From Promethearchaeota archaeon (GTDB lineage Archaea > Asgardarchaeota > Lokiarchaeia > Sigyniarchaeales > SOKP01): 64,000 bases of DNA. The stretch covers positions 1-64,000 of the forward strand of contig JAHPZI010000017.1 in assembly GCA_019058295.1 (NCBI GenBank), read 5' to 3'. The notes under the pieces were generated by a model that saw only the letters and a list, made by a program, of their open reading frames with translations, was not told the origin of the DNA and did no database searches. Of this stretch, positions 35,753 to 42,216 are shown in pieces; the stretch's first letter is position 1, and every line of letters begins with the position of its first letter. The position numbers were made by a program, and so were the translations under genes.

Positions 35753-36352
35753 TTATTCTTTAAATTCCGCTAACCTTTTAATAACTTTTCTAATGCTTTT
35801 CAAACCCTCCTCGTCCTGTTCTACGCCTTTTTTACCTAGGTCCTTGGTCCATAATGAGGCACCTAAATTAGCTCCAAATGCTCCTCCTGAAACGCAAATC
35901 ACATGATTTTGTTGATAAAAATCTAAAATTGATCTTATTGCGATTTCTTGTCCACCACTTCGATCCCCACCAACTGCTAAAGCTACTCCAATTTTGTTTT
36001 TGAATACATTTGGATTTTTGGCAATTAACGCACGACAGCGATCCATGATCGTTTTTAGTTGCCCCGATAAATTCCCTTGAAAAACAGGAGTTCCTAATAA
36101 GAGAAATTTTGCTATTTCTAACTTAGGGTAGAGTTCCGCTAAATTATCAACATGCATACATCCTTTTTTCTCACGAATGCAATAATCGCAATGGACGCAG
36201 AATTTTATGGTCTTTCCTCTAACTGTCCAAAATTCAGTTTCAAATCCAAATTTCTTTGCGGCATAATCCAATGCATATTCAACAGCAAACTCAGTCCCTT
36301 GATTTCGCGGACTTCCACATATACCTAATAGTAGGTTTTTATTTTGAGCCAT
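35753..36352 (-). CDS. Iron-sulfur flavoprotein (Isf/flavodoxin family)
   Basis: GSPR, CVHCDYC......C, GTPVF and GGDRSGGQE motifs. Confidence 0.9.
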   Translation of the reverse strand: MAQNKNLLLGICGSPRNQGTEFAVEYALDYAAKKFGFETEFWTVRGKTIKFCVHCDYCIREKKGCMHVDNLAELYPKLEIAKFLLLGTPVFQGNLSGQLKTIMDRCRALIAKNPNVFKNKIGVALAVGGDRSGGQEIAIRSILDFYQQNHVICVSGGAFGANLGASLWTKDLGKKGVEQDEEGLKSIRKVIKRLAEFKE

Positions 36353-36425: not shown

Positions 36426-37079
36426 ATGGTTTCAGAAAAATCAAGCTTAGCCCGTGTTAAAGTAAAGTTCCCAGATCAGATTTGGATAAGTGAAATCTTT
36501 AAAAAATTCAATGATATTCAAATGGAAATCATTAATTTCCTTCCATATGATCTTGAAAAATCTATTGGAAACGCAATAATCGAGATTATGCATTATCAAA
36601 TTAAATCTATTGTAGAAGTAATCAAGAACCATCCCTCAGTGTTTGAGTTTAGTATATTAGAACAGGAAGAGAACAAAATTAGGTTTAATGTTAAAACAAA
36701 AGATCCTTATTTGTTGTATGGAGTAATAAAATATGGAGTTTTAGTAAATTTCCCGGTTAAGGTCAAGGAGGGTTATGCTTATTGGAGGCTAATTTCAACG
36801 AGGAAAAGAATCGATGATTTATTAACTCTTTTTGAAAATAAAGGAATTGATTTTGAATTATTAAGAATTGGTAATTCTCCTTATGAAATTGATGATCATA
36901 GTTCTAAATTAAGTTTTGAGGAAGATAAAATTTTAGAAAAAGCAATTAGTTCAGGATTTTTTGAAGTTCCTCGAAAAATCTCCTTAGAAGAATTAGCTAA
37001 TGAATTGGGAAAATCTAAATCTGCTTTATCAGTTATGCTGAGAAAAATTATTAAAAAAAAGGTTGTCTTAAAAATTTAA
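36426..37079 (+). CDS. Bacterio-opsin activator-like (HTH_10) transcriptional regulator
   Basis: C-terminal A...GFFEVPRKISLEELA.ELG.SKS.....LRK motif. Confidence 0.85.
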   Translation: MVSEKSSLARVKVKFPDQIWISEIFKKFNDIQMEIINFLPYDLEKSIGNAIIEIMHYQIKSIVEVIKNHPSVFEFSILEQEENKIRFNVKTKDPYLLYGVIKYGVLVNFPVKVKEGYAYWRLISTRKRIDDLLTLFENKGIDFELLRIGNSPYEIDDHSSKLSFEEDKILEKAISSGFFEVPRKISLEELANELGKSKSALSVMLRKIIKKKVVLKI

Positions 37080-37857
37080 ATTTTCCTATTTTGAATAATT
37101 GAACCATCTCTGCCAATGATGGTCTCCTCAACTGAAATTTGGCGATCAATCGTTTGTAGAATTGGATCTAAGAATATTTTAATTTTTTGACAGCAAGGAA
37201 CTTCCATTAACACCAGTTTGATGCTTTCTATTGGATTTAATTTTAAAATTTGCTCCAATTTTTCCAACTCGACTTCTCCAAGACCTAACATCGGACAAAC
37301 TGTTACCAATGGCTTTCCTCTAAGGATTTTTCTGTGAAAATCACCATAAGCAAATGGCGAACAGTCTGAGGCGATTACTAATTCTTTATTATTGAAATAT
37401 GGAGCGGTAGGATTAACTAATGTTAATTTTGTTGGCCATTGTCGTAATGCGGATGGAATTTCCCCTGTAAGTTCAGAATCTTCCCATATTTCCTCAAATA
37501 CTATTGGTTGAGATGATGGACAATTACATTGATGGGTGTGTGTAGATTTCTCCTTTTCCTTCAGTTTTTCTAAGTGGTTTTCTACAGCCTCCTCATCGAA
37601 TGCTACCGCTTCTCTTTCTATGATCCTTAAAGCACCTTCAGGACATTCTCCAATACACGCACCAAGCCCATCACAAAATACATCATTCACAACTTTAGCT
37701 TTTCCATCAATAATTTCGAGGGCGCCTTTTATGCTACATAAGAGATAACTTATGTTTCTGCACAGGCGACCACACAATTACCACAGCCAGTACACAAATC
37801 ATCATCAATTTTAATTATCTTTCTATTCACTAATTTTCCTTTTTCAGTTAAAGTCAT
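37076..37857 (-). CDS. 2[4Fe-4S] ferredoxin-domain protein (hcp-associated FrdX-like), split by a 29-nt intron: exon 1 37857-37758, exon 2 37728-37076, 250 aa
   Basis: GAGGT SD and ATG at 37857 give MTLTEKGKLVNRKIIKIDDDLCTGCGNCVVACA. Removing 37729-37757 continues in frame as EGALEIIDGKAKVVNDVFCDGLGACIGECP...LRQWP...DC...CP...EVPCC. Confidence 0.88.
37729..37757 (-). other. Putative archaeal bulge-helix-bulge (BHB) mRNA intron, 29 nt
   Basis: Intron sequence AAACAUAAGUUAUCUCUUAUGUAGCAUAA. Exon helix CGCCU/AGGCG, central 4-bp helix GUGC/GCAU, bulges AGA and AAA, intron hairpin ACAUAAG/CUUAUGU. Contains an in-frame TAA and its length is not a multiple of 3. Confidence 0.82.
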
Positions 37858-37920
37858 TTTTTTTTACCTCTTTTAGTTCTTATTTAAAGGATAATTAAAA
37901 CTTGATATAATTTTAATCTC

Positions 37921-39143: not shown

Positions 39144-39170
39144 TTACTACTCTTCCTACCTATATTTAGG
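39144..39170. repeat. 27-bp direct repeat, copy 2 (overlaps the SOR stop codon and 3' UTR)
   Basis: TTACTACTCTTCCTACCTATATTTAGG. Confidence 0.8.
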
Positions 39171-39540
39171 AGGACTTCCATAATCCATGGAGATTGCAAT
39201 ACTCCCGTGCCCAAAGTCCTTCCGTATCATCAACTACGAAGGTTGCTTTGGGTTCATCCCCTGGCTTTAAATTTACCTTTTCATAGAAATTATTACCTAT
39301 TAAGTTAATCCATTGAATCGAGTGTTCTTTAGTCATGGGATGAGGGGACCCCATAGAAATACCAACATCAACAGTTACGTTATTTCCATCAATTGTAATT
39401 TTTGGAACATGTTTCTCACCTTTCCAATCTGCTGTTTGTGGTTCTAATAACTCCATTTCTTGTTTACAACACTCTATATAGTCAGCTGTAGCGAAAAGGA
39501 CCGTCCCGCATTTATTACATTTATAAACTTCTTTTACCAT
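39166..39540 (-). CDS. dfx: Desulfoferrodoxin/superoxide reductase
   Basis: CNKC...CC, EKHVP, HPM...H.I.WI and CNLHG motifs. Confidence 0.92.
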   Translation of the reverse strand: MVKEVYKCNKCGTVLFATADYIECCKQEMELLEPQTADWKGEKHVPKITIDGNNVTVDVGISMGSPHPMTKEHSIQWINLIGNNFYEKVNLKPGDEPKATFVVDDTEGLWAREYCNLHGLWKSS

Positions 39541-40311: not shown

Positions 40312-42216
40312 TCATAATCCCAACTTCTTACGATTTGCTTCAATGTGTTCTAACATTGCATCAACAGCTTGAATCGTATCGGTTTCAACATGTAGGATTC
40401 CGCCAGTAACATCTTTACAGTCAACAGTTAATAATTTGACTAAATCTGGTCCTCCTGTAACCGTAGGAACAGGATTCACATAGGTGTAAAGTCCAAACGC
40501 AAGTGCAAATATCGCATCGATAGTTGCTTTTTGTTCCATATACTCCGGCGCGACAGCAACAACAGGTAAATCAGGGATTGGAACACCTCCAAGGGCATCT
40601 GAAACAGCGGCAACAAGATCTGCTACCCGTCCAGTATCCGTACATGTTCCATAACTTAGGACTGGAGGTGTACCCAATTTTTCACAAAGAGCCTTGAGAC
40701 CTGGGCCTGCTAAATCTTTTGCTTCCGGAGAACATAATCCTGCAACCTGTACTCCTCCATTTCCACATCCCATAGAAAGCACCAAGACATCTCTTTTAAT
40801 TAATTCTTTAGCTACAGCAACAGTATGTACATCTTGACCCTTATCTCTAAGACTTGTACAAGAAACAAGTCCCGCAACACCTCTTATAGTACCATCTTTT
40901 ATTGCATCAAGAAGAGGTGTTAAGGATCCTCCTAAAGCTTCAACAATACTTTCTGTAGAAAAGCCAACCACAGCCTCATTCATATCTAATCCTATTACAG
41001 GATCTATGCTTTCATGGCGTTCCTTAAAATTATCAATTGCCATTTGAAGCAATGTTGCTGCTTGTTCTTCTGCTTTTTCAGGGATATAATCAAGTCTTTC
41101 ATCAATTCCTTCAAAGGCAACTACTTCTGATACGGGAATTAATTTGAACTTGTATTTTTCAGCATAAAGTGGATCGATTGGCATTGAACAATTCATGTCG
41201 CATACAAATGCATCAATACACCCACTTGCGAGAACTGCTTCTTGCATTATCCAATTTCCCGTAAAACCATAGAAAACATCGTCCATCTCCCATCTTTGAA
41301 TCATTTCCTGTCCAGTTTCAATATTAGCGATAATTCGAAGGCCTTTAGCACCAACTGTTTTCGCTTTCTCTTGCCATTCAGGCTTTCTTGCCAATTGAAC
41401 CATTGCAAATCCAAGGAACGGTTCATGTCCATTGGGTAAAATATTAACATAATCAGGATCTAATACACCAAGATTTACCCGCATTTTATGAGGCCTTGGA
41501 ACATTAAAAAGAATATCTTGAATAAATTCATTGACAATTTGACTTTGATATGCCATAGCAATTCCTAATCGCATTGCTTTTAAGGCTAAGCTTGCATAAT
41601 ATCCATCTACATTCGTCAAACATGAACTTGTAGAGAACATCATTTCACCATAAAGACCGCCAGGATAAATTCCAATTTTTTTCCATACATCTTGTCTTTC
41701 TTTAGGTGCTAAAGCTTCAACAACCTTGCTGGGCTCATCAAACGGTCTATTGAAATCTTCCTTAACGGCATTATATAATCTTAAAGCAATTTCATTATCC
41801 GAACCAGAAGTATCTAAACCTAATCGATTTGCAAAACTTTTTAATTTTTGCGGTTCACTAATTTTAAACGGAGTTTTTCCTTCAATTGTCGCTTTTAACG
41901 TTTTTAGTGTAGTTTCTGTGTGATAATGATATGTGGAAGTACCCATTACATTTCTTAGAAGCATCATCCGCATAGCCATACCATCCGCTGTGATTCCACA
42001 GACCCCTCGTTTATCAATAGTTACATCTGCTCGACAAGGTCCATTAGAGCATAAATCACATCTAGCACCCTTTAAGCAGAATGGACATCTTTTATCGGGA
42101 ACACCACCAAATCCTTGAGCTTCAAACCGATCCCAGATATTAATCATGCCATCTTTTTTTATACGTTCATAGACTTTTTGTACCGATTTATGATATGAAA
42201 TTCTTTCTCCTTCCAT
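40312..42216 (-). CDS. cooS: CO dehydrogenase catalytic subunit-like protein (CooS/HCP family, non-canonical C-cluster)
   Basis: CPFC...CDLCSNGPC...VCG, NGHEP, DMNC, SCT, MGC, GTCTD and EQKA motifs. IETG replaces the usual CCTG. Confidence 0.85.
   Translation of the reverse strand: MEGERISYHKSVQKVYERIKKDGMINIWDRFEAQGFGGVPDKRCPFCLKGARCDLCSNGPCRADVTIDKRGVCGITADGMAMRMMLLRNVMGTSTYHYHTETTLKTLKATIEGKTPFKISEPQKLKSFANRLGLDTSGSDNEIALRLYNAVKEDFNRPFDEPSKVVEALAPKERQDVWKKIGIYPGGLYGEMMFSTSSCLTNVDGYYASLALKAMRLGIAMAYQSQIVNEFIQDILFNVPRPHKMRVNLGVLDPDYVNILPNGHEPFLGFAMVQLARKPEWQEKAKTVGAKGLRIIANIETGQEMIQRWEMDDVFYGFTGNWIMQEAVLASGCIDAFVCDMNCSMPIDPLYAEKYKFKLIPVSEVVAFEGIDERLDYIPEKAEEQAATLLQMAIDNFKERHESIDPVIGLDMNEAVVGFSTESIVEALGGSLTPLLDAIKDGTIRGVAGLVSCTSLRDKGQDVHTVAVAKELIKRDVLVLSMGCGNGGVQVAGLCSPEAKDLAGPGLKALCEKLGTPPVLSYGTCTDTGRVADLVAAVSDALGGVPIPDLPVVAVAPEYMEQKATIDAIFALAFGLYTYVNPVPTVTGGPDLVKLLTVDCKDVTGGILHVETDTIQAVDAMLEHIEANRKKLGL

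What the first reader, a model, noticed from the sequence alone, without database searches (positions are those of the whole stretch)
37715..37775. Candidate BHB (tRNA-endonuclease-type) intron inside an Asgard-like protein-coding gene
Seen in sequence: the minus-strand mRNA reads GGUCGCCU GUGC AG^A A ACAUAAG UUAUCU CUUAUGU A GCAU AA^A AGGCGCCC. Exon-exon helix CGCCU/AGGCG (extended by GG/CC), a 4-bp central helix GUGC/GCAU, two 3-nt bulges (AGA, AAA) on opposite strands, and a 7-bp intron hairpin; one A.A mismatch makes it a slightly relaxed BHB/BHL. Cutting after the second nucleotide of each bulge removes exactly 29 nt (37729-37757) and yields GCC TGT GCA GAA GGC GCC = ACAEGA. This joins the first CxxCxxCxxxC motif to the rest of an otherwise intact 250-aa ferredoxin. 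Unspliced, the frame stops at once (GAA ACA TAA). Established: BHB motifs are cut by archaeal EndA and ligated by RtcB, and mRNA introns are known mainly from crenarchaeal cbf5. Inference: this lineage splices mRNA of a redox-stress gene, possibly as a regulatory switch analogous to RtcB-ligated XBP1 splicing in eukaryotes. I am not aware of this being described in Asgard archaea. Gene callers would give a wrong N-terminus, as the ORF track does.
Basis: partly seen in the sequence, partly recalled or inferred. Interest (0 to 1): 0.95.

Follow-up and report, generated by a model that had tools for sequence, protein, structure and literature searches.

The report
tRNA-type intron in Asgard ferredoxin gene
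A 29-base insert shaped like the introns that archaea cut out of tRNAs splits an iron-sulfur protein gene of an Asgard (Loki-type) archaeon, and comparison with 18 other versions of the gene indicates it is cut out of the messenger RNA, which papers so far document inside only one archaeal protein gene (cbf5).

Summary
Minus-strand 37729-37757 is a 29-nt insert between the fourth Cys of a CxxCxxCxxxC motif and ...EGALEIIDGK.

It is not an artefact or a pseudogene:
- A contig from a second sample bridges it unchanged.
- Eighteen further alleles, down to about 45% protein identity, carry a 29-nt insert at the same codon.
- 95% of proposed pairs hold, against 25-58% when slid, and three stem pairs change on both sides.
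- Stem positions evolve at half the synonymous rate; the loop evolves neutrally.
- Exon synonymous sites that must pair are fixed only when the insert is present.

Ribosomal bypass and frameshifting fail: the Glu codon is split, landing codons do not match, and three lineages have stops in the read-through frame.

The genome encodes a two-subunit EndA. RtcB is missing from this 79%-complete assembly but is present in 7 of 8 congeners. uL11, uS11 and argG carry similar 30-nt inserts.

No RNA data exist, so splicing is inferred. The XBP1-like switch has no support. This scan has noted similar introns in other Asgard genomes.

The parts
37758..37857 (-). Exon 1: ATG to the first base of the split Glu codon. 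It encodes MTLTEKGKLVNRKIIKIDDDLCTGCGNCVVACA plus the G of GAA, and carries the first CxxCxxCxxxC motif.
   Evidence: The spliced N-terminus matches Fer4 dicluster models across the junction (Fer4_7 E = 4e-11, residues 22-66).
37729..37757 (-). The 29-nt intron, with an in-frame TAA at its third codon.
   Evidence: The same length and site occur in 18 other alleles. A DNA contig from a second sample bridges it with 0 differences.
37076..37728 (-). Exon 2: AA of the Glu codon, then GALEIIDGK... to the stop. It holds the second cluster motif CDGLGACIGECP and the C-terminal AF_0155-type domain (QWP...EVPCC).
   Evidence: Homologues carry a precomputed PF27217 annotation.
37764..37768 (-). Outer helix h, 5' strand (CGCCU, in exon 1). 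It pairs with 37723-37727.
   Evidence: 89% of cells paired. Synonymous sites are fixed only in intron-bearing alleles.
37760..37763 (-). Central 4-bp helix H, 5' strand (GUGC, from the Cys and Ala codons).
   Evidence: paired in 17 of 17 alleles. The Cys codon third base is U in 17 of 17 intron-bearing alleles and 15 of 24 intron-less alleles.
37757..37759 (-). 5' bulge AG^A. The predicted 5' cut lies between 37758 and 37757. It is followed by an unpaired A (37756) that faces A 37735, which is the relaxed feature.
   Evidence: In alleles where only one cut pair restores CAEGA (L004, L008, L009), the cut must lie exactly here.
37736..37755 (-). Intron hairpin: 7-bp stem (37749-37755 with 37736-37742) and 6-nt loop (37743-37748).
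   Evidence: 96.6% of cells paired, with three pairs changed on both sides. The stem diverges at 0.22-0.25 and the loop at 0.50-0.53, against 0.47 at third codon positions.
37731..37734 (-). Central helix H, 3' strand (GCAU, in the intron). It is invariant in all alleles although non-coding.
   Evidence: It is also invariant in the 10 alleles found by protein homology alone.
37728..37730 (-). 3' bulge AA^A. The predicted 3' cut lies between 37729 and 37728.
   Evidence: The middle base varies (A, C or U) as expected for an unpaired base. A low-depth intron-less relative diverges from the window exactly at 37728 (table 7).
37723..37727 (-). Outer helix h, 3' strand (AGGCG, in exon 2).
   Evidence: The Gly codon third base is C or U in 17 of 17 intron-bearing alleles, against 10 of 24 intron-less alleles (Fisher p = 1e-4; kin are not independent).

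Best explanation
The 29 nt at 37729-37757(-) are an archaeal bulge-helix-bulge (tRNA-type) intron inside the coding sequence of a ferredoxin-domain/AF_0155-domain protein of a Promethearchaeota (Loki-type Asgard) archaeon. In the pre-mRNA, exon 1 pairs with exon 2 (CGCCU/AGGCG) and with the 3' end of the intron (GUGC/GCAU), and the rest of the intron forms a 7-bp hairpin. This presents two 3-nt bulges, 4 bp apart, to the two-subunit (alpha-beta)2 splicing endonuclease. The enzyme cuts after the second base of each bulge. An RtcB-type ligase then joins G to AA, restoring the Glu codon and the frame (ACAEGAL), and the intron is released, probably as a 29-nt circle. Unspliced mRNA yields only a 35-residue peptide because of a stop in the intron. 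Shown here: the sequence and fold, conservation of site, length and structure, selection on paired positions, and presence of EndA. Inferred: the cleavage and ligation themselves, and which enzymes perform them. The intron is old: it predates the split of two deep clades of the gene. It is now patchy because alleles with and without it replace each other by recombination, or it is lost.
For: 1. Geometry and stability: (z = -4.0).
2. Exact restoration of a 250-aa protein collinear with intact homologues.
3. Real DNA: an independent sample's contig bridges the insert unchanged and no deletion joints were seen.
4. Nineteen distinct alleles from genomes and metagenomes carry a 29-nt insert at the same codon, in both deep clades of the gene at about 45% protein identity.
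5. Structure counts: 95.2% of cells paired, against 25-58% when slid. Three stem pairs change on both sides (C-G/U-A 8:8, A-U/G-C 9:7, U-A/G-U). 0 of 500 shuffles reach the observed covariation score.
6. Rates: stem 0.22-0.25, loop 0.50-0.53, third codon positions 0.47. The stem is slower than synonymous sites in 43 of 45 pairs of alleles ascertained by protein alone. The window's intron is 29/29 identical to that of L154, whose exons differ at 35% of third positions.
7. Exon synonymous sites that pair are fixed only when the intron is present.
8. The BHB cut rule predicts the one junction that gives CAEGA in alleles where the Glu codon is split as G|AA or G|AG.
9. Machinery: there are two separate EndA-family genes of about 200 aa. 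One has the Tyr/His/Lys-type positions and best matches PDB chains 3p1z_B and 3ajv_B (the depositors name them only tRNA-splicing endonuclease; from my memory, untested here, these are catalytic subunits of a crenarchaeal heterotetrameric EndA). The other lacks the His. Published work assigns Asgard archaea the broad-specificity (alpha-beta)2 type with the L1 loop (PMC5829648). RtcB is present in 7 of 8 congeners. tRNA introns of 13-54 nt occur in the same genome.
10. The same genome has 30-nt inserts with in-frame stops inside conserved motifs of uL11, uS11 and argG. In uL11 and argG a canonical BHB with the same cut rule restores GPxxGP and SGGLDTS, with codons split by the insert.
Against: There is no RNA evidence of any kind: no listed run is RNA, and no spliced-cDNA-like partner was found in protein clusters. 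The motif is not strict: one A.A (N.A in other alleles) mismatch sits between the central helix and the hairpin, so the 5' bulge is formally a 4x1 internal loop. RtcB was not found in this assembly (79% complete). The two main compensatory changes separate the same two clades, so they may represent few evolutionary events. The outer-helix pair 12:53 is unpaired in 9 of 17 alleles. A homology-free scan of the genome showed no excess of BHB-bounded, ORF-fusing hairpins over slid controls, so the size of the intron class is not established here.
Confidence: 0.8

Rival explanations
1. Translational recoding. The ribosome either hops over the insert (programmed bypass, as in phage T4 gene 60 or the 'byps' of Magnusiomyces mitochondria), or shifts frame before the stop and reads through it, so no RNA cutting is needed.
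For: The insert is short, forms a hairpin and has a stop just after the take-off region. In one clade a TGT (Cys) before the insert is matched by a TGT in the exon-2 frame inside it. The exon-2 frame is open through the insert in most alleles.
Against: In the other clade the would-be landing codon is TAT, not TGT. In G172, L136 and L153 the exon-2 frame has stops inside the insert. Hopping from TGT would give C-SIK-GAL instead of the C-AE-GAL conserved in all intact homologues. In most alleles the Glu codon exists only as G + AA across the insert, which no hop can decode. Substitutions follow base pairing rather than codon position. In uL11 and argG, too, the conserved motif spacing is restored only by cutting within codons.
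Confidence: 0.05
2. Inactivating insertion. The gene is a pseudogene, or it now makes only a truncated protein from an internal start (or two separate polypeptides), and the hairpin is incidental.
For: Unspliced, exon 1 ends after 35 codons. Gene callers find a 233-aa or shorter ORF. Many relatives live without the insert.
Against: The insert keeps its site, length and structure across alleles whose exons have diverged to about 45% protein identity. Both exons, including the four Cys of exon 1 and the GAL...DGKAKV stretch right after the insert, stay intact. Paired intron positions evolve at half the synonymous rate. Exon synonymous sites are constrained to pair. Where the exon-2 frame is closed by stops (G172, L136, L153), the residues between the insert and the next possible start are still conserved. 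Essential single-copy uL11 and uS11 carry the same kind of insert.
Confidence: 0.05
3. Sequencing or assembly artefact, for example a chimeric join or a collapsed repeat.
For: None beyond the fact that the window is a metagenome-assembled genome.
Against: A contig from a different sample bridges 37688-37860 with 0 differences and 0 gaps. The same insert occurs in assemblies from JGI, ENA, NCBI and Logan made by different groups.
Confidence: 0.01
4. The intron is real and spliced, and in addition acts as a regulated switch. Splicing efficiency (EndA/RtcB activity, or ribosome occupancy of the BHB) would gate production of the full Fe-S protein under redox stress, by analogy with IRE1/RtcB splicing of XBP1/HAC1.
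For: The gene sits among oxidative-stress genes: an FMN reductase, desulfoferrodoxin, and a conserved convergent HTH_10 regulator. There is an early in-frame stop in every allele. The whole intron, loop included, is identical in two alleles with 35% third-position divergence.
Against: Most orthologues, including the closest ones, lack the intron. Presence or absence swaps by recombination between near-identical genomes. Housekeeping genes carry similar introns. No condition-dependent data exist.
Confidence: 0.1

Closest known systems
cbf5 pre-mRNA intron of Crenarchaeota (Desulfurococcales, Sulfolobales; Watanabe 2002; Yokobori 2009, PMC2738675)
   Same: It is a short BHB-type intron inside a coding sequence, in a lineage with the broad-specificity two-subunit EndA. 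It is inherited vertically with lineage-specific losses, and gene callers mis-predict the gene.
   Different: This case is in a different phylum (Asgard, Promethearchaeota) and a different gene (a ferredoxin-domain redox protein rather than an RNA-modification enzyme). Splicing of cbf5 has been shown experimentally, whereas here it is inferred. Here at least three other genes of the same genome (uL11, uS11, argG) carry similar inserts, so it is not a single-gene oddity.
BHB intron in the 5' UTR of Haloferax volcanii HVO_1309 mRNA (PMC7714728)
   Same: It is an mRNA substrate of the archaeal splicing endonuclease outside tRNA and rRNA.
   Different: It lies in the untranslated leader, so it does not interrupt a reading frame. 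It is in a euryarchaeon with the alpha'2 enzyme, which needs strict BHB motifs.
Archaeal pre-tRNA introns at position 37/38 (hBHBh' motif)
   Same: The strand order is the same: outer helix, 4-bp helix formed by the 5' exon and the intron's 3' end, 5' bulge, intron hairpin, 3' bulge. The cut is after the second bulge base on both strands. The size falls within the 13-54 nt range of this genome's tRNA introns.
   Different: The host RNA is a translated mRNA. The exon strands of the helices are built from codons and constrain synonymous sites. There is one extra mismatched pair next to the 5' bulge.
IRE1/RtcB splicing of XBP1 (metazoa) and HAC1 (yeast) mRNA
   Same: It is non-spliceosomal removal of a short frame-changing intron (26 nt in XBP1) from an mRNA, with ligation by RtcB in metazoa.
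   Different: The endonuclease is IRE1, which recognises two stem-loops rather than a BHB, and the event is stress-regulated. Nothing here shows regulation.
Programmed translational bypass (T4 gene 60; 'byps' in Magnusiomyces mitochondria)
   Same: These are short structured inserts with a stop codon that interrupt otherwise intact genes and are absent from relatives.
   Different: Bypass needs matched take-off and landing codons and cannot rebuild a codon split by the insert. Both requirements were tested here and neither was met.

Membership tests
Archaeal BHB (splicing-endonuclease) intron | Two 3-nt bulges on opposite strands separated by a 4-bp helix | tested here: met
   The MFE fold and the alignment give a 4-bp helix GUGC/GCAU flanked by AGA and AAA. 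One N.A mismatch lies next to the 5' bulge, so this is a relaxed rather than a strict motif.
Archaeal BHB (splicing-endonuclease) intron | Flanking helices h (outer) and h' (inner) | tested here: met
   The outer helix has 5 bp (89% of cells paired over 17 alleles). The inner hairpin has 7 bp (96.6% paired, with 3 pairs changed on both sides).
Archaeal BHB (splicing-endonuclease) intron | Cutting after the second base of each bulge and joining the exons gives the functional product | tested here: met
   Removal of exactly 29 nt restores CAEGAL and a 250-aa frame collinear with intact homologues. The cut pair is unique in alleles L004, L008 and L009.
Archaeal BHB (splicing-endonuclease) intron | A cognate endonuclease able to accept relaxed motifs is encoded by the organism | tested here: met
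   There are two EndA-family genes: a catalytic-type one on C1 and a second, His-lacking one on C26. The published Asgard type is (alpha-beta)2 with the L1 loop (PMC5829648). The L1 loop itself was not checked here.
Archaeal BHB (splicing-endonuclease) intron | An RtcB-type 3'-phosphate ligase is encoded by the organism | tested here: inconclusive
   RtcB was not found in this 79%-complete assembly. It is present in 7 of 8 congeneric genomes.
Archaeal BHB (splicing-endonuclease) intron | Spliced RNA, a circular intron, or in vitro cleavage is observed | not testable with these tools
   No RNA run holds the locus. No cDNA-like partner was found in protein clusters.
Ferredoxin-domain plus AF_0155-domain protein (Fer4 dicluster + PF27217) | An N-terminal 4Fe-4S dicluster domain with two Cys motifs | tested here: met
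   This holds only after removal of the insert: Fer4_7 E = 4e-11 over residues 22-66, and Fer4_10 and Fer4_6 are above their cut-offs. The intact homologue P0003 gives the same hits.
Ferredoxin-domain plus AF_0155-domain protein (Fer4 dicluster + PF27217) | A C-terminal AF_0155-type domain (QWP...EVPCC) | tested here: inconclusive
   PF27217 is listed as a precomputed annotation for nearly all homologues, and the invariant motifs are present. My own Pfam scan did not return that model.
Programmed translational bypass element | Matched take-off and landing codons that give the conserved protein | tested here: not met
   The TGT/TGT match exists in one clade only. The other clade has TAT, three lineages have stops in the landing frame, and the product would differ from the conserved C-AE-GAL.

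The most novel reading that the evidence does not exclude
In this Loki-type Asgard lineage, tRNA-type splicing of messenger RNA is a constitutive and essential layer of gene expression rather than a curiosity. Single-copy ribosomal protein genes (uL11, uS11), argG and this ferredoxin gene all need it. In two sister species the RtcB ligase gene itself carries a 29-nt BHB intron, which would make the ligase depend on its own activity (an autoregulatory loop). The mini-introns persist for long periods, move between alleles by recombination, and some share sequence (uL11 and uS11, 22 of 30 bases), hinting that they can spread to new genes.
Probability: 0.45. Interest if true: 0.9.

Novelty: new member of a known kind. 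Interest (0 to 1): 0.7.

Why it matters
Introns in archaeal protein-coding genes are treated as a near-singular exception (cbf5). A conserved, structurally constrained BHB intron in a redox gene of an Asgard archaeon, alongside similar inserts in ribosomal protein genes of the same genome, would mean that the closest known archaeal relatives of eukaryotes routinely cut and re-join mRNAs with the tRNA-splicing enzymes. That bears on how interrupted genes and RtcB-based mRNA splicing (XBP1-type) arose.

It also has a practical consequence. Gene callers truncate or split such genes: several public entries for this family start at a false TTG inside the Fe-S motif, and public records of this family, truncated calls among them, are named 'ATP-binding protein'. 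Asgard proteomes and metabolic reconstructions therefore contain systematic errors. The locus offers a clean test substrate: a 29-nt intron, a unique junction, and natural intron-less alleles as controls.

Tried and rejected
1. RNA evidence: no RNA holder is listed for the locus, so expression and splicing could not be examined.
2. A search for a spliced-cDNA-like partner. Among retrieved homologues the best intact partner of any intron-bearing allele is 90-92% identical. The one full-length member (P0135) of a cluster of truncated calls turned out to be a recombinant intron-less allele, not a cDNA.
3. Homology-free genome scans for BHB-bounded inserts that fuse open frames. The first gave 678 groups and the second 336, dominated by chance fusions of neighbouring ORFs. 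A third, with slid-register controls, gave 36 hits in register against 32-46 out of register. It recovers the ferredoxin intron but misses uL11 (longer loop) and argG (interrupted outer helix). It therefore says nothing about the size of the class.
4. The search for related loci on species genomes was swamped by bacterial relatives of the family and gave only two Asgard loci. The phylum-wide genome-search runs replaced it.
5. Sequence relatives of the ferredoxin intron elsewhere in the genome: none above the reversed-query control.
6. RtcB in the window's own genome: not found with PF01139. I treat this as incompleteness, not absence.
7. L152 (P0073), a truncated gene call that I suspected of hiding a variant intron, is intact.
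8. I considered group I/II introns, mobile-element remnants and DNA-level excision. I rejected them on size (29 nt), the lack of target duplications or terminal repeats, and the absence of any deletion joints in DNA contigs.
Full report
**Observation.**
- Folded without constraints, the 61 nt adopt the proposed structure: an exon-exon helix CGCCU/AGGCG, a 4-bp helix GUGC/GCAU, a 3' bulge AAA, a 5' bulge AGA followed by one A.A mismatch, and a 7-bp hairpin with a 6-nt loop.
- The energy is -19.9 kcal/mol, against -10.8 +/- 2.3 for shuffles (z = -4.0).
- Deleting 37729-37757 (29 nt) joins a 100-nt first exon to a 653-nt second exon. The product is a 250-aa protein reading ...CTGCGNCVVACAEGALEIIDGK....
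- Unspliced, the frame ends at GAA ACA TAA after 35 codons. The ORF list instead offers a 233-aa frame from a TTG inside the Fe-S motif.

**What the gene is.**
- The spliced N-terminus matches 4Fe-4S dicluster models across the junction (Fer4_7 E = 4e-11).
- Exon 2 finds more than 4,000 homologues. The closest are from Promethearchaeota/Lokiarchaeota MAGs and are typically 250-265 aa, with Fer4 domains plus the AF_0155-type domain PF27217.
- The nearest relatives (94, 90, 88 and 84% identity) read C(A/S)CAEGAL(E/A)I(I/V)DGK with no insert.
- The family is widespread in anaerobic bacteria and archaea.
- In the window the gene sits between a convergent HTH_10 regulator, an FMN reductase and a desulfoferrodoxin. 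The HTH_10 neighbour is conserved in the orthologous loci.

**The insert is real DNA and is conserved.**
- A contig from a second sample of the same study bridges 37688-37860 with no difference and no gap, and no deletion joints were seen.
- Several database homologues have odd N-termini of the form ...RLC(R/S)xIxxxL(C/Y)SIKGAL..., which is the out-of-frame reading of an insert.
- Their DNA, nine species-representative genomes of one family, nine of twelve metagenome contigs found with a pattern that left the stem free, and two further truncated gene calls give 19 distinct alleles. All have exactly 29 nt at the same codon.
- They fall in both deep clades of the gene tree, which share only about 45% protein identity.
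- Every allele has a stop inside the insert in the exon-1 frame.

**Structure is what is conserved.** On a gap-free alignment of 17 alleles:
- 95.2% of cells of the proposed 16 pairs are standard pairs, against 25-58% when the 3' partners are slid by 1-3 columns.
- Three hairpin pairs change on both sides (C-G/U-A 8:8, A-U/G-C 9:7, U-A/G-U), and 0 of 500 shuffles reach the observed covariation score. The two frequent double changes separate the same two clades, so they may be few events.
- The central helix never varies. Its exon strand is fixed by the Cys and Ala codons, but its intron strand GCAU is non-coding and still invariant.

**Rates agree with this.**
- Over all allele pairs, third codon positions of the flanking exons differ at 0.47 and the 6-nt loop at 0.50.
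- The 13 stem positions not fixed by my search pattern differ at 0.25.
- Among the ten alleles found by protein homology alone, the stem figure is 0.22, and it is lower than the synonymous figure in 43 of 45 pairs.
- The window's intron is identical, 29 of 29, to that of L154, whose exons differ at 35% of third positions.

**The exons feel the structure.**
- The Gly codon's third base, which pairs with G in the outer helix, is C or U in 17 of 17 intron-bearing alleles but only 10 of 24 intron-less ones.
- The Cys codon's third base, which pairs in the central helix, is U in 17 of 17 against 15 of 24. The sequences are related, so the Fisher values overstate the case.

**Rivals.**
- *Assembly artefact* is excluded and by the many independent assemblies.
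- *Pseudogene or truncated product* does not fit. Both exons stay intact across deep divergence. In three lineages (G172, L136, L153) the exon-2 frame is closed by stops inside the insert, yet the residues just after it are conserved.
- *Ribosomal hopping* needs matched take-off and landing codons. A TGT/TGT pair exists in one clade only and the other has TAT. The product would read C-SIK-GAL rather than the universal C-AE-GAL. In most alleles the Glu codon exists only as G + AA or AG across the insert.
- *A frameshift read-through* would insert about ten variable residues into the cluster-binding motif, and it is impossible where stops occur.
- The BHB cut rule, by contrast, predicts the one junction that restores CAEGA in alleles where the boundaries are unambiguous.

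**Machinery.**
- The genome has two EndA-family genes of about 200 aa. One has the catalytic Tyr/His/Lys-type positions and best matches PDB chains 3p1z_B and 3ajv_B, which the depositors call tRNA-splicing endonuclease. From memory, untested here, these are catalytic subunits of a crenarchaeal heterotetramer. The other gene lacks the His.
- This fits the published assignment of the broad-specificity (alpha-beta)2 type with the L1 loop to Asgard archaea (PMC5829648). That enzyme type accepts relaxed motifs.
- RtcB was not found in this 79%-complete assembly, but it is in 7 of 8 congeners.
- ARAGORN finds 10 intron-containing tRNA genes, with introns of 13-54 nt and several of 28-31 nt.

**Not a lone case in this genome.** Following leads from earlier notes of this scan, I searched the genome with HMMs.
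- uL11, uS11 and ArgG each match with one in-frame stop inside the match.
- Each holds a 30-nt insert inside a conserved motif. Removing it restores GPPIGPVVGPTG, SSPYAAMQCGFR and YSGGLDTS, and each folds into an exon-exon helix plus an intron hairpin.
- In uL11 and argG a canonical BHB with the second-base cut rule gives the right junction, with codons split by the insert. For uS11 I could not draw a strict BHB in register.
- uL11 and uS11 are essential and single-copy here, so these inserts must be removed somehow.
- In two congeneric genomes the RtcB gene itself carries a 29-nt insert between GVGY and DINCG, with a 9-bp hairpin, a 4-bp UUGG/CCAA helix and bulges AUA and AAA.

**History.**
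- Intron-bearing and intron-less alleles are interleaved in both clades of the tree. At least 9 changes are needed, and at least 5 are forced by well-supported branches.
- One pair shows how this can happen. L153 (intron) and L155 (no intron) are about 99% identical over the 3' ~750 nt of the gene and beyond, but about 15% diverged over the 5' ~200 nt that include the intron site. That is a recombination mosaic.
- The simplest reading is an old intron whose presence or absence is reshuffled by allele replacement and loss. Independent gain at one site is not excluded.

**What is not shown.**
- No RNA data exist for this locus, so cleavage, ligation and the enzymes responsible are inferred.
- The proposed XBP1-like regulatory role has no support. 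Most orthologues, including the closest, lack the intron, and housekeeping genes have the same kind of insert.
- My homology-free scans could not size the class.

**Comparison with the literature.**
- Full-text searches found BHB processing of archaeal mRNA only for crenarchaeal cbf5, which lies inside the coding sequence and has lineage-specific losses (PMC2738675), and for the 5' UTR of Haloferax HVO_1309 (PMC7714728).
- A 2026 review of non-canonical splicing mentions archaea and BHB motifs only for tRNA splicing.
- I therefore file this as a new member of a known kind: the same mechanism as cbf5, in a new phylum and a new gene, and apparently one of several in its genome.
- Earlier notes of this scan report similar mini-introns in other Asgard genomes. 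They are unchecked leads and were not used as evidence.

Noticed in passing
L125 (G171:C3:15700-16300) and L126 (G173:C13:33170-33770): The RtcB ligase gene of two congeneric genomes is split after about residue 47 by a 29-nt insert between GVGY and DINCG. It folds as a near-canonical BHB: central helix UUGG/CCAA, bulges AUA and AAA, and a 9-bp hairpin. The two copies differ by pair-preserving changes. The ligase mRNA would need ligase activity to mature.
   Followed up: partly
G000 C30:126577-126777(-), C1:158644-159027(-), C2:54774-55298(-) (loci L147, L148, L150): uL11, uS11 and argG each carry a 30-nt insert with an in-frame stop inside a conserved motif. Removal restores the motif. uL11 and argG fit a strict BHB; uS11 does not fit in register.
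   Followed up: partly
G000 C30 (uL11 insert) versus C1 (uS11 insert): The two 30-nt inserts are identical at 22 of 30 positions without gaps. Only 4 other places in 6.4 million genome positions match the uL11 insert that well, so they may be related copies. No larger sequence family was found.
   Followed up: partly
L153 versus L155: An intron-bearing and an intron-less allele are about 99% identical over the 3' three quarters of the gene and downstream, but about 15% diverged around the intron site and upstream. This recombination mosaic swaps intron presence.
   Followed up: yes
window 36426-37079 (+): An HTH_10 regulator gene converges on the ferredoxin-family gene, with their 3' ends overlapping by 4 nt. 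It is the conserved neighbour in the orthologous loci L001, L004, L006, L008, L009, L011, L152 and L154, which suggests a regulator-target pair.
   Followed up: no
window 35753-36352 (-), 39166-39540 (-): An FMN reductase and a desulfoferrodoxin flank the locus. Relatives have rubredoxin-type oxidoreductase, glutaredoxin or hybrid-cluster protein genes nearby, giving an oxidative/nitrosative-stress neighbourhood.
   Followed up: no
window 40312-42216 (-): A 634-aa ORF lies close by and was not examined. Earlier notes on other genomes mention a CooS/HCP-like enzyme next to this ferredoxin type.
   Followed up: no
Public protein sets (P0006, P0008, P0031, P0049, P0071, P0088, P0091, P0092 and cluster members): Intron-bearing alleles are deposited as N-terminally wrong or truncated proteins, and some are named 'ATP-binding protein'. 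One cluster of 15 members is almost entirely such truncated calls.
   Followed up: partly
window 37694-37728, run X4 (tables 7 and 8): A low-depth relative from another study matches up to 37728 and then continues with ...AACTGTGCCG, an intron-less allele reading CAEGA. Similarity therefore breaks exactly at the predicted 3' splice site.
   Followed up: no
G000, ARAGORN output: One 'tRNA-Stop (tta)' call with a 2114-nt intron, and two calls with odd anticodon positions, look like false positives or disrupted tRNA genes.
   Followed up: no
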